A stretch of DNA of 64,000 bases from Elusimicrobia bacterium GWB2_63_22 (GCA_001799735.1 MGUA01000008.1:7175-71174); one strand, 5' to 3'; counted from the stretch's first letter, positions 11,293 to 58,886 are shown. The notes: generated by a model not told the origin, from the letters alone. Translations and numbers: made by a program.

Positions 11293-12309
11293 TCAGGCCG
11301 CCGGGAGGTTCTCCCCGACGAAGGGGTCGGGAGCGGACAGGCTGCCGTAGACCGCCTCGGCCGCCGCCGGGCAGCCGCCGCGGCAATCGGCCGCCCGGGC
11401 GCAGTCCCGGCAGCGCTCCGGCAGCGCGGTCCTGAACCGGGCGACGTACGGGTGGGCCAGCAGTTCCGGCAGGTCGCTCCGCAGCAGGCTGCCCAGGAGC
11501 TCCGGGCTATGGTTGCAGACGCGGAGATTGCCGCTGAAATCCACCGTGTAGTAGGATCCCTTGCCGCCGCGGGGGCAGCTGCCGGAACGGATGTTTTTGT
11601 AGCGGGACAGGTCCAGCACGCAGGGCGGCACCGGCACCGAGGCCGCTACCGGGAACTTGTACTTCCCGGAGAAAGCGTCCAGCTCCGAAAGCGCCTTCTC
11701 CAGCTGCTCCGGCGCCGGCATAAACTCCAGGTGTTCCCGGCGGGCCGGGTTGAGGCGGTTGAACAGCAGGCCGCGCGCGCCCAGAAAAAGAGAAAAGCCG
11801 GCTGCCTCCGCGGCGCCGGAGACGTTGTCCCTGGTGGCCACGAAAACGGTGGAGAACGGGACGCCGGAGACCTTCAGCTCGGCTATGCCCGCGGTGACGG
11901 CGTCGAAGTCGTCGGAGCCTTTGACCCTGGCGTACAGGGCGCGGTCGGCCGCCGGCAGCGTGACCTGCGCCATGGAAACCCCGGCCGCCGCCAGCCGGCC
12001 GGCCGCGCCTGCGTCAAGCAGCGCGCCGTTGGTCAGCAGGTTCACCGACATGCCCTGCTCCCTGATAAAAGCCGCCAGGTCAAAAACCGCCGGCCAGAGC
12101 AGCGGCTCGCCCCCGGATAGGGCGATCTGCCGGGGCCTGGCCTGGCGCTTAAGCTTCAGTATTATCTTTTTCCAGTCTGCCAGGCCCAGGGAGGGCGCGG
12201 GGTAGGGTTGGTGGCGCCAGGCGTTGTAGCACCAGGCGCAGCCCTGGTTGCAGTCCGGGGTCAGCTCCAGTACGAAGGAACTCAGGTCCGCCTTCCTCCG
12301 GAACATCAA
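11293..12309 (-). CDS. Radical SAM/SPASM-domain protein
   Basis: CNQGCAWC (CX3CX2C), GGEPLL, and a C-terminal CRDCARAADCRGGC (CX2CX5CX3C) SPASM signature. Confidence 0.85.
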   Translation of the reverse strand: MMFRRKADLSSFVLELTPDCNQGCAWCYNAWRHQPYPAPSLGLADWKKIILKLKRQARPRQIALSGGEPLLWPAVFDLAAFIREQGMSVNLLTNGALLDAGAAGRLAAAGVSMAQVTLPAADRALYARVKGSDDFDAVTAGIAELKVSGVPFSTVFVATRDNVSGAAEAAGFSLFLGARGLLFNRLNPARREHLEFMPAPEQLEKALSELDAFSGKYKFPVAASVPVPPCVLDLSRYKNIRSGSCPRGGKGSYYTVDFSGNLRVCNHSPELLGSLLRSDLPELLAHPYVARFRTALPERCRDCARAADCRGGCPAAAEAVYGSLSAPDPFVGENLPAA

Positions 12310-54435: not shown

Positions 54436-54509
54436 GCGGGCGTGGTTCAGTGGTAGAACGCGACCTTGCCAAGGTTGAGATGTGGGTTCGATTCCCATCG
54501 CCCGCTCCA
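54436..54509 (+). tRNA. tRNA-Gly (anticodon GCC), CCA encoded
   Basis: Acceptor GCGGGCG/CGCCCGC, D-arm GTTCAGTGGTAGAAC, anticodon loop CTTGCCAAG, T-arm GTGGGTTCGATTCCCAT, discriminator T plus CCA. Confidence 0.95.
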
Positions 54510-54522
54510 GATTTAATGTATT

Positions 54523-54550
54523 AGGCCATCCCTTCGGGATGGCCTTTTCC
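54523..54550 (+). terminator. Intrinsic terminator after tRNA-Gly
   Basis: AGGCCATCCC / TTCG / GGGATGGCCT followed by TTTCC. Confidence 0.7.
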
Positions 54551-54555
54551 ATTAT

Positions 54556-54778
54556 GCGGGCTATGGGAATCTTTCCTTATGGGGAGGCTCGCTGCCGCTC
54601 GCATGTCGCCCGCTAAGAAAACTAAATCCTGGGCTATGGGAATCATTCCTTACGGAAGAACGGTCGCTGCCGCTCCCTGTCGCCCGCTCAGAAAACCAAA
54701 TTCTGGGCGATGGGAATTATTCCTTATGAAGAGGCTAGCTGCCGCTCGCGGGCTTATGTTTCCTGCAAAACTTGCCGG
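54556..54778. repeat. Three tandem 73-74-bp repeats
   Basis: Units start at 54558, 54631 and 54705 (GGGC[TG]ATGGGAAT...). Conserved GCTGCCGCTC core. Units 1 and 2 end in TCGCCCGCT, identical to the tRNA-Gly 3' acceptor strand. Confidence 0.85.
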
Positions 54779-54874
54779 GATTTAAGTAAGCCAGGGAGGG
54801 GAGTGTGGTGCCGCGCTTGGAACCCGCACCGTGGACTTGCGGCATCTTCACAAATCCTTTTGCAAACATTTCCA

Positions 54875-54896
54875 TGCGAAAATATTTATTTTCACA
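54875..54896. promoter_or_regulatory. Dyad symmetry TGCGAAAATA-TT-TATTTTCACA, candidate enhancer-binding-protein site
   Basis: 9 of 10 positions are symmetric. Centred about 105 bp upstream of the sigma54 -24 element. AAAATATTTA recurs 20 bp downstream. Confidence 0.3.
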
Positions 54897-54989
54897 TAAA
54901 AATATTTAATCGAAGCGGATAAGCCAGAGCTGACAATGGGGAGAGCGGTTACGTGGGCTGGCAGGCCCAAAAGACGGCGCTCGGTGCGC

Positions 54990-55005: not shown

Positions 55006-55058
55006 CCGTTTGTGGTACAGGCGCAGCAAAAAGAATATTTAACGGAGGATAGAAGAAA

Positions 55059-55268
55059 ATGAATATAGATCTAGCGGTAAAATCCTTGAACATGACAGAC
55101 GGAGAAGTGCTGACCTTGGAAAAAGCCAAGAGTCGCATGGAATTCGAAGCCCTGCCGTTGATGGTGGCGGCCCACCTTCCGGAAGCGGCTTCCACAAGAT
55201 GTGGCACTTATAGCGATCCGGACGACCCCTGCCCGGATGATGATCCTCTCGACTACAAAGGGTCGTAA
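55059..55268 (+). CDS. 69-aa candidate RiPP precursor peptide (acidic Cys/Asp/Pro-rich C-terminus)
   Basis: GGAGGA 9 nt upstream of the ATG. Sequence ends ...EAASTRCGTYSDPDDPCPDDDPLDYKGS. Located directly upstream of a radical SAM/SPASM gene. Confidence 0.65.
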   Translation: MNIDLAVKSLNMTDGEVLTLEKAKSRMEFEALPLMVAAHLPEAASTRCGTYSDPDDPCPDDDPLDYKGS

Positions 55269-55288
55269 GCTAAAATCTTACCCAACTG

Positions 55289-55325
55289 CTGCCGGGGAAC
55301 CGAAGACAACTCGGTTTCCCGGCAG
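55289..55325 (+). promoter_or_regulatory. Hairpin after the peptide gene (possible attenuator or mRNA stabiliser)
   Basis: CTGCCGGGGAACCGA / AGACAAC / TCGGTTTCCCGGCAG (one mismatch) followed by TTTAC. Confidence 0.5.
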
Positions 55326-55433
55326 TTTACGCTTCCCCTGGAATCGAATATTTGTAAACAATGGCCCGCTACCGCTATAATAAGCACAAGCTCCGGCTGC
55401 GGACTGGGGCCCGGTTTTACAGGATAATGCAAG

Positions 55434-56846
55434 ATGAAATACTACATCAGCCGGTACTTGAACGCTATTGATCTTGGGGAAACTGTCCTTTTATTTAACG
55501 GGGTCAACGGCTGCCTGGACGAGGTTTCAGGAAAACCCGCCGCTATCCTTAAGTCCGGGAATTCTGAGCTGCTGACTTCCCTGACCGAAGGTGACCAGGC
55601 CGCGCTTCTGAAGCGCGGACATATAACCAGTCTCACCCCGGAGGAGGAACTGCTGCGCTTCAGGGAGTACGCCTCCGCCCTCCATAAAAAACTGGAAACT
55701 GATTCCCAGACAGGCGGCATCATGCTGCTGATGAGCTATAACTGCAATCTGGCCTGCAAATACTGCTATCAGCAGAAGCACAGGCCGCAGAAGTCCAAGG
55801 CGCTCATTACCCCGGAACTGGTCGAGGCTGTTTTTGAAAAACATATTTTCCAAATGATTCCCGGAGCGCGGCTCCAGGGTTCAGATATCTCTTTCTACGG
55901 CGGCGAACCTTTCCTGCCCGCGAACGAGCCCGCCATACGGAAAGCCCTGGAGTACGCGAAAAAATACGGGATGACGGCGTCAGCCATTTCCAACGCCACT
56001 AAAACCGACCTGATGCCGGACATTTTTGGGCCAGGCCCGGGGCAGGTCAGCCGCGTCCAGGTTTCATTGGACGGCAGCAGGGAACTGCACGACGTCTCCA
56101 GGGTGCCGCTATCCGGAGAAAGAACTTATGACAAGATCCTCGAGAATATTTCATTGCTTCTCGAGCGCAAAACAGCGGTCAGCATAAGGCTTAACCTGGA
56201 CCGGCGCACTCTGGCGTCCGTGCCGCAGCTTATCGCGGAACTTAAAGCGAAGAACATCCTCGGCAACAAATACGCGACCATCTGCGCCAGTCCGCTGCAC
56301 GACAATATCGCGGAGGTTGACGCCACGGACTTCATGGGCCTTGCCGAGTTATCCGCGCAGGTCTTCAGCCTCGGGATAGACCTGGAACATCCGGTAAGCC
56401 TTCACGCCAGCGATGCCAGTTACCTGCTCAGCCTGAAAGCCGGGATCGGCCTGACGCACACCTCGTTCTGCATGCAGACAATGCAGCGGACTCTGGTCCT
56501 GGATCCTTTCGGCGACCTGTACGCCTGCTTCGAGGAGGCCGGGTATCCGGAGTTCCGCGTAGGCCATGTTTCGCAAAACGGGGTGGAGTTTTTCCCCCTC
56601 CGCGATACATACAAGAGACGGCATATCGCGAACATGGCGGACTGTTTAAAATGCCCGGTAGCTCTTGCCTGCGGCGGCCAGTGCGGGGCGAGATGCCGCG
56701 CCAAGACCGGAGATCTGTTTAAGCCTCATTGCGGGGACATAAAACAGGTAATACTTGAAGGTCTGAAGCTGGCCTATCTCAAATGGCGGTCTGACCCGGA
56801 AAAAACCGCGCCGCGGTCCGGGCCTCCGGTTTCTACGCACGGATAA
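55434..56846 (+). CDS. Radical SAM/SPASM peptide-maturase-like enzyme with about 95-aa N-terminal extension
   Basis: CNLACKYC (CX3CX2C), FYGGEPFL, and SPASM motifs C...GDLYAC and CLKCPVALACGGQC (CX2CX5CX3C). Confidence 0.88.
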   Translation: MKYYISRYLNAIDLGETVLLFNGVNGCLDEVSGKPAAILKSGNSELLTSLTEGDQAALLKRGHITSLTPEEELLRFREYASALHKKLETDSQTGGIMLLMSYNCNLACKYCYQQKHRPQKSKALITPELVEAVFEKHIFQMIPGARLQGSDISFYGGEPFLPANEPAIRKALEYAKKYGMTASAISNATKTDLMPDIFGPGPGQVSRVQVSLDGSRELHDVSRVPLSGERTYDKILENISLLLERKTAVSIRLNLDRRTLASVPQLIAELKAKNILGNKYATICASPLHDNIAEVDATDFMGLAELSAQVFSLGIDLEHPVSLHASDASYLLSLKAGIGLTHTSFCMQTMQRTLVLDPFGDLYACFEEAGYPEFRVGHVSQNGVEFFPLRDTYKRRHIANMADCLKCPVALACGGQCGARCRAKTGDLFKPHCGDIKQVILEGLKLAYLKWRSDPEKTAPRSGPPVSTHG

Positions 56847-56849
56847 ACT

Positions 56850-57965
56850 ATGCCCGACAGCGATCCTTTGACATACAAGAACCATCTGAAGAGGGCTTAT
56901 TTCGTAAAGTACGGGGAAAAGGTCCTGGCGATAACCGACACCTCGTGCTACCACCTGGCCGAGGAGACGGCCCTGCTGGCTGCTAATTTGCCTGAAAAAG
57001 GCAAAAAAGAAGCCTACCTCTGTTTTTTGTCGGGGTTGGGGGTGACGAAGCCGGAAAAGATATTCGAAAAGCTTCTTGATATAGGGGCCTTGCACATAAA
57101 TGTCGCGCGCACCTGGAAAGATATAGCAGGCATGGTTATATCGCCGAAGCTGAGGCTGATCGGGCCGCAGCTCCAGGAAAAGGTGCTGGGCTCTATCGGA
57201 GTGGGAGCGGCCGGCCTTAAGAGATCGGCCGGAGCGCTCTGCTGGCTGTCTTTCCCGGGTTTGATCTGGGGAATTGCGCTGCTGTTTTCCGGCCCCGGCG
57301 CCTCTCAAGCTTCGCCGTCCGGCAATGCGAGCGGCTTAGCGGTGCTTCTCCTGGTCATAGCCAGCAGTCTGCTGCACGAGCTTGGCCACTCTTTCGCCGC
57401 CGCGGCTTCCGGCATAGGTTTCCGGCCCATTGGTTTTTCGGTCTATCTCATCTATCCGGTTTTTTATACCAATGTTTCAGGCATCGACAAACTTGACCTG
57501 AAAGCGAAGGCGTTCATAGATTGCGGCGGTTTTATCCCGCAATCCATTTTCCTGTTTTTCCTATTGATGGTCAGTTCCGCTTTCGGGAGCGCCGCCGCCG
57601 CGGAAGCCGCGCGCTGGATAGTCTATATAGTCCTTTTCAACCTTAATCCTTTATTGAGAACCGACGGGTACTGGCTGTATAAAGATATCTATGCAGAGCT
57701 GAAAGCCAGCCCCTGGGCCCGGGCCATGCATTACCTGTACCTGTCGGCGTTCTTTGTTTTCTCGGTGTACTTCCTGTGGTTCATCTATTCCAGGCTCGGC
57801 GGCTTCTGGGGCGAGCTGAAGATTCTGGCGCGTTCTCCGGAATATCTGTTCCAGGGCGGGTATCGCATACTGCTGGGGGCATATTTTATTTTTCTCGGCC
57901 TGACCGGCGGACTCCGCCGGTTCAAGGAAGGCCGCAAGGAATGGGACGAGCTCCGCAGGAGTTAA
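56850..57965 (+). CDS. M50 (site-2-protease-like) membrane zinc metalloprotease with N-terminal soluble domain
   Basis: HELGH in a TM segment plus the NLNPLLRTDG (NxxPxxxxDG) motif. Multiple TM helices. Starts 4 nt after the rSAM stop. Confidence 0.72.
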   Translation: MPDSDPLTYKNHLKRAYFVKYGEKVLAITDTSCYHLAEETALLAANLPEKGKKEAYLCFLSGLGVTKPEKIFEKLLDIGALHINVARTWKDIAGMVISPKLRLIGPQLQEKVLGSIGVGAAGLKRSAGALCWLSFPGLIWGIALLFSGPGASQASPSGNASGLAVLLLVIASSLLHELGHSFAAAASGIGFRPIGFSVYLIYPVFYTNVSGIDKLDLKAKAFIDCGGFIPQSIFLFFLLMVSSAFGSAAAAEAARWIVYIVLFNLNPLLRTDGYWLYKDIYAELKASPWARAMHYLYLSAFFVFSVYFLWFIYSRLGGFWGELKILARSPEYLFQGGYRILLGAYFIFLGLTGGLRRFKEGRKEWDELRRS

Positions 57966-57966
57966 C

Positions 57967-58821
57967 GTGGGCATGATGAAAAAACCTTTCAGGCGCGCTT
58001 TCATAGAGATAACCAACAGCTGCAACCTGGCTTGCGGTTTCTGCGCCTCGTCGTCGCGGCCCAAGACCGAGATGACGCTGGAGAATTTCGAGCGCGCGGC
58101 CGCGCAGGCCGGGGAGCTGGCGGCGGTGCTGTTCCTGCACCTGCTGGGCGAACCTTTCATGCATCCGCGGCTTCCTGAGCTGCTGGCGGCCTGCTCCCGC
58201 CTGGGGCTGAAGGTGAACCTGGTCACCAACGGCCTGCTGCTCAATAAGTTCGGGCCGGCTATTTTCACGGAGGGCTGCCTGAACCAAGTCTCCGTCTCCC
58301 TTCAGGCTTTAAGCGGATTGCCTCCCGAACGGCGCGCCGCGGAGCTGGGCGGCCTTATGCAGTTCGCGCTGCGGCGGCCGACGGGGCTTATAGTCAGTTT
58401 CAGGCTGCGCGGGAACCCGGACGACGCTTTTGTTAAGGATACTAAAGCGGCGGTGCTTGAAGCGCTGGCTGGCGGCGGCCCCGGCGAGAAAGTGCGCGAC
58501 GGGCTTAAGCTGCGCGAGGGCGTGTATCTGAATTTCGGCAGTATTTTCGACTGGCCCGGCGGCCCGGGCGGCAGGCCCAAGAAGGGCTGCCTGGGGCTGC
58601 GGCATCATTTCGGCATTTTAAGCGACGGGCGGGTGGTGCCCTGCTGCGCGGATGTCGACGGCGCCATGGCGCTGGGGAACGTCAACGAGAAACCGTTGGC
58701 GGAGATCCTTTCCGGCCCCAGGGCGCTTGCCCTGCGCGACAGCATAGCCGGCCGCACACCCATGCCACCCTTCTGCGCCTCCTGCGGCTTCACCGCTCCC
58801 GATATAGAACCCGCCCCGTGA
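57967..58821 (+). CDS. Second radical SAM enzyme (short, with C-terminal auxiliary Cys motifs)
   Basis: CNLACGFC (CX3CX2C), HLLGEPF, C-terminal C...GRVVPCC and FCASCG. GTG at 57967 or ATG at 57973/57976. Confidence 0.85.
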   Translation: MGMMKKPFRRAFIEITNSCNLACGFCASSSRPKTEMTLENFERAAAQAGELAAVLFLHLLGEPFMHPRLPELLAACSRLGLKVNLVTNGLLLNKFGPAIFTEGCLNQVSVSLQALSGLPPERRAAELGGLMQFALRRPTGLIVSFRLRGNPDDAFVKDTKAAVLEALAGGGPGEKVRDGLKLREGVYLNFGSIFDWPGGPGGRPKKGCLGLRHHFGILSDGRVVPCCADVDGAMALGNVNEKPLAEILSGPRALALRDSIAGRTPMPPFCASCGFTAPDIEPAP

Positions 58822-58832
58822 TCTGAATATGG

Positions 58833-58886
58833 AATCCGGGGACACAATACTTAATTCTGTCCAATTAAGTATTGTGTCCCCGGATT
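58833..58886. repeat. Perfect 24-bp inverted repeat with 6-nt spacer
   Basis: AATCCGGGGACACAATACTTAATT / CTGTCC / AATTAAGTATTGTGTCCCCGGATT, 12 nt after the last rSAM stop. No T-tract. Confidence 0.85.

What the first reader, a model, noticed from the sequence alone, without database searches (positions are those of the whole stretch)
55059..58821. Candidate novel RiPP cassette: precursor peptide, radical SAM/SPASM maturase, M50 membrane protease and a second radical SAM enzyme
There are four co-oriented genes with 4-nt and 1-nt gaps between the last three. (1) A 69-aa peptide with a strong RBS. (2) A 470-aa rSAM enzyme with a full SPASM signature and a roughly 95-aa N-terminal extension where peptide-recognition domains are usually found. 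(3) A polytopic protein with the HExxH and NxxPxxxxDG motifs of M50 site-2 proteases, a plausible leader peptidase and/or exporter partner. (4) A 284-aa second rSAM enzyme with auxiliary Cys motifs. There is no ABC exporter, no lanthipeptide or YcaO enzyme, and no separate PqqD gene. I do not recognise this combination (peptide plus two rSAM enzymes plus M50) or this peptide as a described RiPP class.
Basis: partly seen in the sequence, partly recalled or inferred. Interest (0 to 1): 0.85.

Follow-up and report, generated by a model that had tools for sequence, protein, structure and literature searches.

The report
Uncharacterised three-gene Elusimicrobial RiPP cassette
This is a real, compact gene set for making a modified Cys-containing peptide (precursor, radical-SAM/SPASM maturase, membrane metalloprotease).

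Summary
All four ORFs exist as described, but only the first three form a unit. The unit is a 69-aa precursor (55059-55268), a 470-aa RRE-rSAM-SPASM maturase (55434-56846) and a 371-aa M50-like HExxH intramembrane protease (56850-57965).

In every orthologous metagenomic locus with enough upstream sequence (about 16 non-redundant loci, all those with an assigned taxon Elusimicrobiota), the maturase sits directly upstream of the protease. Eleven of 13 loci also carry one to three small ORFs with the same leader, (I/V)KSLN(L/M)T.GE.LTLEKA.DRMEFEALP, followed by a hypervariable core with at least 2 Cys.

The second rSAM (57967-58821) is absent from all of those loci. It has host-like GC3 (0.79, against 0.59-0.69 for the cassette). 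Its 88%-identical orthologue lies elsewhere in a genome that also carries the cassette.

No NCBIfam equivalog cut-off is reached. The best structural match of the maturase is the thioether synthase CteB.

The most likely mechanism is leader-guided Cys thioether cross-linking, then leader removal and possibly export by the protease. This is inferred, not shown.

A peptide-rSAM-M50 gene order is already known from epipeptides (epeXEP), but these enzymes are not orthologous to that system. I class it as a new variant of a known kind, of moderate interest.

The parts
54436..54509 (+). tRNA-Gly(GCC). This is the left landmark of the compositionally distinct segment that holds the cassette.
   Evidence: ARAGORN; Rfam tRNA 70.3 bits; terminator-like hairpin at 54523-54545.
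54558..54749 (.). 74-nt tandem repeat, 2.6 copies, between the tRNA and the cassette. It may be decayed integration scars. Its relation to the cassette is unproven.
   Evidence: TRF score 261; each unit carries a piece resembling the tRNA 3' end (D5); unique in the window; no Rfam family.
55059..55268 (+). Precursor peptide, 69 aa. The leader is about residues 1-35 (MNIDLAVKSLNMTDGEVLTLEKAKSRMEFEALPLM). The core is about residues 36-69 (…STRCGTYSDPDDPCPDDDPLDYKGS; 2 Cys, Asp/Pro-rich). RBS GGAGGA at 55044-55049.
   Evidence: Leader HMM E = 6e-25; 22 further homologues among 1.84 billion representative proteins; mean pairwise identity 63% in the leader and 36% in the core, and every core has at least 2 Cys.
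55288..55326 (+). Perfect 16-bp hairpin immediately after the precursor stop codon. It is a possible partial terminator or RNA stabiliser that sets the precursor-to-enzyme ratio (inferred).
   Evidence: dG -32.4 kcal/mol, z = -4.45, 0 of 200 shuffles as stable; comparable hairpins follow the precursors in L082 and L096.
55434..56846 (+). rSAM-A, 470 aa. It has an N-terminal RRE-like domain (about residues 1-92), a radical-SAM core (CxxxCxxC at 104-111) and a SPASM domain (346-433, seven invariant Cys). It is the class-defining maturase.
   Evidence: NCBIfam and Pfam; invariant residues; AF2 pLDDT 90.4 with a beta-beta-beta-alpha-alpha-alpha N-domain; full-length Foldseek match to CteB at E = 2e-18, then TigE and anSME.
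56850..57965 (+). M50-like intramembrane zinc metalloprotease, 371 aa. A soluble N-domain (about 1-115) is followed by a membrane domain with H176ExxH180 and N264xxPxxxxD272G. It is the presumed leader peptidase and possibly the exporter.
   Evidence: Pfam M50 25.3 bits (gathering score 27.2); NCBIfam YydH/LiaK and daptide HExxH proteases, weak; best PDB sequence hit is MjS2P 3b4r at E = 0.047; invariant motif residues; always found next to rSAM-A.
57967..58821 (+). rSAM-B, a radical SAM protein with a Twitch-like truncated SPASM domain. It is NOT part of the conserved cassette and is a resident Elusimicrobial gene of unknown function. Its likely true start is ATG 57976.
   Evidence: Absent from all orthologous cassettes; family of more than 160 clusters across Elusimicrobia; found at other loci, L116 and L117; GC3 0.79 against 0.59-0.69 for the cassette; alignment to P0122.

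Best explanation
**What it is.** Window 55059-57965 is a minimal three-gene RiPP cassette of an undescribed family that is essentially confined to Elusimicrobiota. It lies next to tRNA-Gly in a segment whose codon composition differs from the host genes around it.

**How it most likely works.**
1. The 69-aa precursor is translated. Its conserved leader (…KSLNMT.GE.LTLEKA..RMEFEALP) is bound by the N-terminal RRE domain of rSAM-A. The domain is shown by a structure prediction. The binding is inferred.
2. rSAM-A cleaves SAM reductively at its CxxxCxxC cluster and uses its two SPASM auxiliary clusters. With these it installs intramolecular cross-links from the core cysteines, most probably Cys-S to carbon thioethers of the sactipeptide or ranthipeptide type. 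In this peptide the likely acceptors are in the Asp/Pro-rich stretch around C48 and C58. This step is inferred and is the least certain.
3. The M50-like intramembrane zinc protease (H176, H180 and D272 as ligands, E177 as the catalytic residue) removes the leader somewhere after the EFEALP motif. Because no transporter is present, it may also release the product across the membrane, as has been proposed for EpeP. This step is inferred.

**What is not part of it.** The downstream rSAM-B and the APH-like kinase are resident neighbours, not components.
For: **Synteny.** rSAM-A is directly upstream of the M50-like gene in every orthologous locus that extends far enough (L081-L103).

**Precursor.**
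- Leader-bearing small ORFs, in 1-3 copies, precede the enzymes in 11 of 13 non-redundant loci.
- 35 distinct precursors were collected. Leader identity is 63% and core identity 36%. Cores are 11.7% Cys, and every core has 2-12 Cys.

**Maturase.**
- Its best partial NCBIfam matches are all peptide maturases, mostly for Cys-rich peptides: TIGR04463, PapB, CefB, the geopeptide maturase and SCIFF.
- The SPASM domain model is passed.
- The AF2 model has pLDDT 90.4 and an RRE-type beta3-alpha3 N-domain.
- Foldseek gives the thioether synthase CteB as the top hit, full length, at E = 2e-18.
- Only seven Cys are invariant in the SPASM region, with no conserved eighth Cys. To my knowledge this matches the situation reported for CteB.

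**Distant relatives.** rSAM relatives at 35-38% identity sit beside Cys/Asp-repeat peptides (CDSDNCDSDSCDSDSC and CDTDCDDVGKCDVDGSCDVD) with S41 and C39-ABC processing genes.

**Protease.**
- The HExxH and NxxPxxxxDG motifs are invariant in 23 homologues.
- M50 proteases already have documented leader-removal roles in RiPP pathways: EpeP, TglG and TmoG (PMC10885120).

**Exclusion of rSAM-B.**
Against: - No experiment exists, and rSAM-SPASM chemistry cannot be read from 16-19% identity. TigE (C-C cyclopropanation, E = 6e-16) and anSME (E = 1e-14) score almost as well as CteB.
- No NCBIfam equivalog cut-off is approached, for example 110 bits against 525.
- This particular core has only two Cys, the family minimum.
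- The M50-like membrane domain has no significant structural match. It sits just under the Pfam gathering score.
- The RRE-like nature of the protease N-domain rests only on topology and on weak hits to McbB, TigE and ThcOx (E at least 0.27). hhalign finds no similarity to the rSAM-A N-domain.
- Many homologous precursors carry long Pro-rich tails, which is unusual for compact RiPPs.
- rSAM-B lies 1-10 nt downstream on the same strand, so it could be co-transcribed here.
Confidence: 0.66

Rival explanations
1. The three-gene RiPP cassette is the same, but rSAM-A performs a different radical reaction. Candidates are epimerisation as in epipeptides, a C-C or C-O cross-link, cyclopropanation, or Cys oxidation. 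In this reading the cysteines form disulfides or bind metal.
For: - The gene order peptide-rSAM-M50 is the same as epeX-epeE-epeP (PMC10885120).
- TigE and anSME are near-equal structural matches.
- No thioether-family cut-off is met.
- The FlmE/OhkG family, which aligns over the full length of rSAM-A, is itself uncharacterised.
Against: - EpeE is a poor match. Foldseek gives E = 3e-7 with TM 0.34, and it is absent from the PDB profile hits.
- The only feature shared by all 35 cores is Cys.
- The cores contain no repeated TVGG-type, K..W-type or other known acceptor motifs.
Confidence: 0.2
2. It is a four-gene cassette in which rSAM-B is a second tailoring enzyme acting on the same peptide, recruited at least in this genome.
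For: - rSAM-B is on the same strand, with only a 1-10 nt gap after the M50-like gene.
- An AGGAG Shine-Dalgarno sequence lies inside the end of the M50 gene.
- rSAM-B has an auxiliary-cluster (Twitch-like) domain.
Against: - rSAM-B is in 0 of about 16 orthologous cassettes.
- The rSAM-B family is spread across Elusimicrobia, with more than 160 clusters, in unrelated contexts.
- In MAG GWA2_61_42 the cassette and rSAM-B are on different contigs.
- Against that MAG's proteins, rSAM-B is 88% identical, while rSAM-A is 70% and M50 is 58%.
- GC3 is 0.79 for rSAM-B and 0.59-0.69 for the cassette.
Confidence: 0.07
3. It is not a natural-product pathway. The small protein would be a regulatory or structural substrate of regulated intramembrane proteolysis, which is the classical role of site-2 proteases. 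Alternatively it would be a cross-linked enzyme subunit, as with QhpC and QhpD. Either way rSAM-A would act as a protein maturase.
For: - M50 proteases usually cleave anti-sigma factors.
- QhpD (TIGR03906) is among the partial hits, at 70.6 bits.
- Some precursors are long (up to about 150 aa) with Pro-rich tails.
Against: - The hypervariable cores, multi-copy precursor genes and conserved leader are hallmarks of RiPPs.
- No sigma or anti-sigma pair and no dehydrogenase genes are conserved nearby.
- PADLOC shows nothing beyond generic similarity to the rSAM core.
Confidence: 0.07

Closest known systems
SCIFF and sactipeptide-type maturases, exemplified by CteB (PDB 5WGG/5WHY; NCBIfam TIGR03974)
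   Same: The three-domain architecture is the same: an N-terminal RRE, a radical-SAM barrel and a seven-Cys SPASM domain. CteB is the best structural match, over the full length, at E = 2e-18. The substrate is also Cys-rich and leader-bearing.
   Different: Identity is only 16%. TIGR03974 scores 83 bits against a cut-off of 425. The precursor is not a SCIFF peptide: its leader is different and its core is hypervariable. The partner is an M50-like protease, which SCIFF systems lack.
Ranthipeptides: PapB/PapA (freyrasin) and NCBIfam NF047865; also QhpD, which makes Cys-Asp/Glu thioethers
   Same: The core is Cys- and Asp-rich. More distant clade members have periodic C-D-x-D repeats resembling Cys/Asp cross-link motifs. 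PapB is the second-best NCBIfam hit. PapB links Cys to Asp or Glu (PMC9413430).
   Different: The score is 102 bits against a cut-off of 340. There is no regular CxxxD spacing in the window peptide or in most of its homologues. The leader family is different.
Epipeptide locus epeXEPAB (yydFGHIJ) of Bacillus subtilis
   Same: The gene order is the same: precursor, radical-SAM/SPASM enzyme, intramembrane M50 metalloprotease. EpeP is thought to both cleave and export the peptide (PMC10885120). The best NCBIfam hit of the protease is the YydH/LiaK family.
   Different: The protease scores 35 bits against a cut-off of 225. EpeE is a weak, partial structural match (E = 3e-7). There is no epeAB-type ABC transporter. 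The cores are Cys-rich, unlike EpeX.
Daptide intramembrane metalloprotease (NCBIfam NF041824) and pearlin M50 proteases TglG/TmoG
   Same: These are membrane HExxH proteases dedicated to RiPP processing. The daptide model aligns at equivalent positions in a protein of equal length (residues 151-276 against model positions 149-279 of 379).
   Different: The score is 30.6 bits against a cut-off of 300. Those pathways use no rSAM maturase.

Membership tests
RiPP biosynthetic cassette (general definition) | A precursor peptide with a conserved leader and a variable core, encoded next to the modifying enzyme | tested here: met
   35 distinct precursors; leader identity 63% against core identity 36%; found upstream of rSAM-A in 11 of 13 loci.
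RiPP biosynthetic cassette (general definition) | A RiPP recognition element (RRE, beta3-alpha3 winged helix) on or beside the maturase | tested here: met
   The AF2 model has strands at 9-13, 18-22 and 28-31 and helices at 33-41, 44-49 and 52-61, with pLDDT above 92. The full-length Foldseek alignment to the RRE-bearing CteB and TigE includes this region. This is prediction only; binding was not tested.
RiPP biosynthetic cassette (general definition) | The peptide is actually modified and its leader removed | not testable with these tools
   This needs co-expression and mass spectrometry.
Radical SAM / SPASM subfamily | A CxxxCxxC cluster motif plus a SPASM domain with the seven-Cys motif | tested here: met
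   C104/108/111; C346, C365, C404, C407, C413, C417 and C433 are invariant in 18 homologues. TIGR04085 scores 41.8 bits, above its cut-off of 27.
TIGR04463 / PapB (NF047865) / CefB (NF038107) / geopeptide (TIGR04280) / SCIFF (TIGR03974) maturase equivalogs | Whole-protein score at or above the curated NCBIfam cut-off | tested here: not met
   Scores against cut-offs: 109.6 vs 525, 102.4 vs 340, 100.4 vs 600, 99.3 vs 400 and 83.3 vs 425.
Anaerobic sulfatase maturase, or cofactor maturases (PqqE, MftC-type) | Score at or above the cut-off, with no dedicated precursor bearing a variable core | tested here: not met
   anSME TIGR03942 scores 78 bits against a cut-off of 349. A hypervariable precursor is present.
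Epipeptide system (epeXEPAB / yydFGHIJ) | A YydG/EpeE-type rSAM epimerase | tested here: not met
   EpeE gets only Foldseek E = 3e-7 with TM 0.34 over about 290 columns. It is absent from the PDB profile hits at E up to 1e-3 and is not among the top 25 NCBIfam hits.
Epipeptide system (epeXEPAB / yydFGHIJ) | A YydH/EpeP-family M50 protease (NF058609) and an EpeAB ABC transporter | tested here: not met
   NF058609 scores 35 bits against a cut-off of 225. No ABC transporter lies in window 48-64 kb, and none is conserved in the homologous loci.
Peptidase family M50 (site-2 protease) | HExxH in one transmembrane helix and NxxPxxxxDG (the third zinc ligand, Asp) in another | tested here: met
   H176ELGH and N264LNPLLRTDG, with motif residues invariant in 23 homologues.
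Peptidase family M50 (site-2 protease) | Pfam PF02163 gathering score, or a significant match to a solved S2P structure | tested here: inconclusive
   The protein scores 25.3 bits against a gathering score of 27.2. Many homologues do carry a precomputed PF02163 hit. MjS2P 3b4r is the best PDB sequence hit, but at E = 0.047. There is no significant Foldseek hit.
RRE-fused protease (N-domain of the M50-like protein) | The N-terminal domain adopts the RRE fold and binds the leader | tested here: inconclusive
   Predicted topology is beta-beta-beta-beta-alpha-alpha-alpha over residues 8-77. The top Foldseek hits are the RRE-bearing McbB (probability 0.95, E = 0.27), TigE and ThcOx, and none is significant. 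hhalign against the rSAM-A N-domain gives probability 0.4%.
   It is in 0 of about 16 loci. rSAM-B orthologues sit in unrelated contexts.
Prokaryotic viperin (considered for rSAM-B next to a kinase) | Score at or above the cut-off, plus the viperin C-terminal domain | tested here: not met
   NF038283 scores 36 bits against a cut-off of 180. The PADLOC pVip match covers only the rSAM core, residues 14-114. The C-terminus is a Cys-bearing Twitch/SPASM domain.

The most novel reading that the evidence does not exclude
This is a new RiPP class restricted to Elusimicrobiota. A CteB-like rSAM/SPASM enzyme would install a cross-link type or topology not yet described on hypervariable Cys/Pro/Asp cores. 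A single intramembrane M50-like protease, carrying its own leader-recognition (RRE-like) domain, would couple leader recognition, cleavage and export, so that no ABC transporter is needed.
Probability: 0.3. Interest if true: 0.75.

Novelty: new variant of a known kind. Interest (0 to 1): 0.55.

Why it matters
Within the full-text library I searched, no RiPP has been characterised from Elusimicrobiota. Every protein of this family is labelled only "hypothetical" or "radical SAM protein".

The family is sizeable, with roughly 100 or more 90%-identity clusters each for the maturase and the protease. It has a sharply defined leader and very diverse cores. That makes it a ready-made, compact three-gene target for heterologous expression, for discovering the rSAM chemistry, and for leader-guided peptide engineering.

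If the protease N-domain proves to be an RRE, it would be an example of a membrane protease that recognises RiPP leaders directly.

It also matters for annotation. The adjacent second rSAM should not be counted as part of the cluster.

Tried and rejected
1. **Genome-collection scan with the rSAM-A alignment.** The tool picked generic rSAM motifs (CNLxCxYC, YGGEPFL). It returned only relatives at 21-29% identity, mostly from Firmicutes (L001-L080). I recovered by scanning metagenomes with the M50-like alignment and by exact-protein look-ups.
2. **hhalign of the rSAM-A N-domain against the M50-like N-domain.** No similarity was found, so a shared RRE origin cannot be claimed.
3. **Foldseek of the M50-like model against the PDB.** Nothing was significant, and no S2P structure was recovered.
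4. **Literature searches**. I searched RiPP + radical SAM + Elusimicrobia, + intramembrane metalloprotease, and daptide + M50. No paper describes this family. The supplement of the Mitchell-lab rSAM compendium is not held.
5. **Defence-system reading.** PADLOC gives only generic rSAM-core similarity to viperins. I rejected this reading.
6. **Kinase as a cassette member.** It reappears near a cassette only in L091 and has host-like GC3. I rejected this too.
7. **Leader HMM on the distant loci.** Only the Vecturithrix precursor scores, marginally (E = 0.04). The leader family is therefore barely traceable outside Elusimicrobiota.
8. **Mobile-element signs.** There is no integrase, and I found no att-like duplication of the tRNA end at the right border. 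"Island" is supported only by composition and by the position next to a tRNA.

Full report
**Observation**

- **Precursor, 55059-55268 (69 aa).** A GGAGGA Shine-Dalgarno sequence lies 9 nt upstream of the ATG.
- **rSAM-A, 55434-56846 (470 aa).** It carries C104xxxC108xxC111 and a full SPASM signature: C346, C365, C404xxC407x5C413x3C417 and C433. It passes the SPASM domain model (TIGR04085, 41.8 bits, cut-off 27) and Pfam Radical_SAM.
- **M50-like protein, 56850-57965 (371 aa).** It has H176ELGH and N264LNPLLRTDG, with hydrophobic helices from residue 120 onward.
- **rSAM-B, 57967-58821 (284 aa).** It has CxxxCxxC and a shortened, Twitch-like SPASM domain with four or five Cys.

Two details need correcting. 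The rSAM-A to M50 gap is 3 nt. By alignment with an 88%-identical orthologue, rSAM-B most likely starts at ATG 57976.

**Which genes belong together**

Homologues of rSAM-A form a tight family. About 100 clusters share 44-99% identity, and every named one comes from Elusimicrobia or Elusimicrobiota MAGs. The M50-like protein has a parallel family. All members are annotated "hypothetical", and the named ones are Elusimicrobia apart from one Oligoflexia protein.

I fetched orthologous loci in two ways: exact-protein look-up (L081-L083) and a metagenome scan seeded with the M50-like alignment (L084-L103). In every locus that reaches far enough upstream, rSAM-A sits directly before the M50-like gene. 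Clustering all ORFs gives M50-like in 21 non-redundant loci, counting the window, and rSAM-A in 16.

An HMM of the window peptide's N-terminus finds one to three small ORFs upstream of rSAM-A in 11 of 13 non-redundant loci with upstream sequence.
- In L090 the precursor's leader has been replaced by an IS3-like transposase, and only the core remnant is left.
- L095 has no recognisable precursor.

Ten loci carry an additional secreted TPR protein between the precursor and rSAM-A. The window lacks it, as do L082 and L096, so the window holds the minimal form of the cassette.

**rSAM-B is a neighbour, not a component**

- None of the orthologous cassettes has rSAM-B within its flanks.
- rSAM-B belongs to a separate family of more than 160 clusters, widespread in Elusimicrobia.
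- In MAG GWA2_61_42 the cassette (P0041 and P0258, locus tags A2X35_07745 and _07740) and rSAM-B (P0122, A2X35_09505) lie on different contigs. There rSAM-B is followed by an MltA-like gene. In another genome it follows a metallo-beta-lactamase-fold gene.
- Against that MAG's proteins, rSAM-B is 88% identical, while rSAM-A is 70% and the M50-like protein 58%.
- GC3 is 0.59 for the precursor, 0.69 for rSAM-A and 0.68 for M50. It is 0.79 for rSAM-B, 0.80 for the kinase and 0.82-0.88 for cysS, ispDF and radA.

The three-gene cassette is therefore a compositionally distinct segment. It lies between tRNA-Gly(GCC) (54436-54509) and a resident gene. The APH-like kinase recurs near a cassette only once, in L091. 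I treat it as flanking DNA.

**The precursor family**

A phmmer search with the 69-aa peptide against 1.84 billion representative proteins returned 22 hits. All are 55-114 aa and carry the same leader. With the locus-derived ORFs this makes 35 distinct precursors.
- The leader consensus is M-N-x3-(I/V)(I/V)KSLN(L/M)TxGExLTLEKAxDRMEFEALP. Mean pairwise identity over its last 28 residues is 63%.
- Core identity is 36%, even with gapped alignment.
- Cores are 24-121 aa long. Their composition is 14% Pro, 11.7% Cys and 8.6% Asp.
- Every core has 2-12 Cys, and the first Cys lies 4-19 residues after EFEA.
- One subfamily shares the motif C(D/E)CxGP(V)GY…C(H/N/R)PY.
- Several precursors end in long Pro-rich repeats.

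The window peptide (…STRCGTYSDPDDPCPDDDPLDYKGS) sits at the low-Cys, Asp-rich end of this spectrum.

A perfect 16-bp hairpin follows the precursor's stop codon (55288-55326, z = -4.45). Similar hairpins follow the precursors in L082 and L096. This fits the attenuator arrangement common in RiPP operons, but that reading is an inference.

**The maturase**

No NCBIfam equivalog cut-off is approached. The best partial matches are nevertheless all peptide maturases, mainly for Cys-rich substrates:

| NCBIfam family | Score (bits) | Cut-off (bits) |
|---|---|---|
| TIGR04463 | 110 | 525 |
| PapB (ranthipeptide) | 102 | 340 |
| CefB (Cys-every-fifth) | 100 | 600 |
| Geopeptide maturase | 99 | 400 |
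| FlmE/OhkG | 99 | 500 |
| SCIFF | 83 | 425 |
| anSME | 78 | 349 |

The FlmE/OhkG family belongs to an orphan RiPP group whose rSAM chemistry is unknown (PMC12703449).

The AF2 model is confident (pLDDT 90.4, pTM 0.88). Its N-terminus shows three strands followed by three helices, which is the RRE topology. Foldseek against the PDB gave these matches:

| PDB match | E-value | Note |
|---|---|---|
| CteB (sactionine/thioether synthase) | 2e-18 to 6e-17 | Full length, 466-488 aligned columns |
| TigE | 6e-16 | |
| anSME | 1e-14 | |
| SuiB | 1e-10 | |
| ChlB | 2e-10 | |
| EpeE (epimerase) | 3e-7 | Partial |

A profile search of PDB sequences agrees with this ranking.

More distant relatives at 35-38% identity, in Candidatus Vecturithrix and a deltaproteobacterial MAG, sit next to peptides with striking Cys/Asp repeats. 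The Vecturithrix peptide (CDSDNCDSDSCDSDSC) follows a GG-type leader that weakly matches the Elusimicrobial leader HMM. The deltaproteobacterial peptide carries CDTDCDDVGKCDVDGSCDVD. These loci have different processing genes: an S41 peptidase, a C39-ABC exporter and an M42-like protein.

The wider clade is therefore dedicated to Cys/Asp-rich peptides. The M50 partnership is specific to the Elusimicrobial branch.

**The protease**

- HExxH and NxxPxxxxDG are invariant in 23 homologues.
- Pfam M50 is just sub-threshold for this protein, at 25.3 bits against 27.2. Many homologues do pass.
- The best NCBIfam hits are the RiPP-dedicated YydH/LiaK and daptide HExxH proteases, both weak.
- The best PDB sequence hit is the M. 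jannaschii site-2 protease, at E = 0.047.
- The AF2 model (pLDDT 81.7) shows a soluble N-domain of about 115 aa with beta4-alpha3 topology.
- The only Foldseek hits with appreciable probability are the RRE-bearing McbB, TigE and ThcOx. None is significant. hhalign sees no similarity to the rSAM-A RRE.

A leader-recognition role for this N-domain is therefore a hypothesis, not a finding.

**Mechanism**

The precursor, the RRE-rSAM-SPASM architecture and the M50-type motifs are shown by computation. The following steps are inferred:
1. The rSAM-A RRE binds the leader.
2. rSAM-A forms Cys-derived thioether cross-links by a radical mechanism.
3. The membrane protease removes the leader near EFEALP and may export the product. 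Export has been proposed for EpeP (PMC10885120).

The thioether assignment rests on four observations:
- Cys is the only universal core residue.
- The nearest families and the nearest structure point that way.
- The SPASM region has seven conserved Cys and no conserved eighth. To my own knowledge this matches the CteB literature.
- The distant relatives act on Cys/Asp-repeat peptides.

I rate the thioether chemistry at about 50% given that this is a RiPP cassette, and the RiPP cassette reading itself at about 85-90%.

**Comparison with known systems, and novelty**

The system works like a sactipeptide, ranthipeptide or SCIFF system and has the gene order of the epipeptide operon. It fails the membership test of every named family (see the membership table). 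The literature searches found no description of it.

I classify it as a new variant of a known kind: a new precursor and maturase family with an unusual dedicated protease, from a phylum with no characterised RiPPs. Interest is moderate, at 0.55.

Noticed in passing
window 54558-54749: A 74-nt tandem repeat of 2.6 copies (81% matches) lies directly after tRNA-Gly and its terminator hairpin. The period equals the tRNA length, and each unit contains a TGTCGCCCGCT piece resembling the tRNA 3' end. It is unique in the window and has no Rfam match. It may be decayed integration scars or tRNA-derived repeats.
   Followed up: partly
window 58833-58886: A perfect 24-bp inverted repeat with a 6-nt loop lies immediately after the rSAM-B stop codon, and it is unique in the window. 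It falls inside the first 20 codons of the mechanically listed 370-aa kinase ORF. The kinase therefore probably starts at ATG 58946 (MAKQPELIKEIE…).
   Followed up: partly
window 54868-54907: Two adjacent 20-nt AT-rich direct repeats (ATTTCCATGCGAAAATATTT / ATTTTCACATAAAAATATTT) lie about 150 nt upstream of the precursor gene. They could be an operator or promoter element.
   Followed up: no
L090 1634-2773: In one orthologous cassette the precursor gene has lost its leader to an IS3-like transposase insertion. The Cys-rich core remnant (…CECKGPVGYQDCHPFTNCPSNNCRPVS) is still readable, so that cassette appears inactivated.
   Followed up: partly
L081 5146-5886; L083 5218-5976, and 8 further loci: A secreted TPR protein of about 250 aa is encoded between the precursor and rSAM-A in 10 of 16 cassettes. 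It is absent from the window. Its role is unknown (chaperone, immunity or receptor).
   Followed up: partly
L083 8542-9555, L093 6139-7191, L095 4266-5324, L099 989-2107; L091 1401-2237, L094, L101: Two further recurrent accessory genes flank some cassettes. One is a secreted protein of about 340 aa with no Pfam match (5 loci). The other is a 278-aa DUF4097 'toastrack' protein (3 loci).
   Followed up: partly
L083/L103, L093, L096 and window 54436-54509: Cassettes often lie within about 0.3-2 kb of a tRNA gene: Val, Met and Ser in those loci, and Gly in the window. This suggests preferential insertion near tRNAs, although I saw no integrase in the window or among the called genes of L081-L083.
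   Followed up: partly
L083 4820-5140, L093 2290-2715, L099 2070-2618, L086 443-772: Several precursors end in long low-complexity Pro-rich repeats such as (PDTE)n, (PDDT)n, (PQ)n and (PTPN)n. This is unusual for RiPP cores and is unexplained.
   Followed up: no
window 57967-58821 and L116/L117: rSAM-B represents a widespread, uncharacterised Elusimicrobial family of short (about 277 aa) radical SAM proteins with a single-cluster Twitch-like domain. It occurs in variable genomic contexts. In L116 it is preceded by two small ORFs (65 and 90 aa).
   Followed up: partly
window ~11950-12276 (-): Another radical-SAM-like coding region elsewhere in the window shows weak similarity to both rSAM-A and rSAM-B (tblastn E about 1e-6). 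I did not examine it.
   Followed up: no
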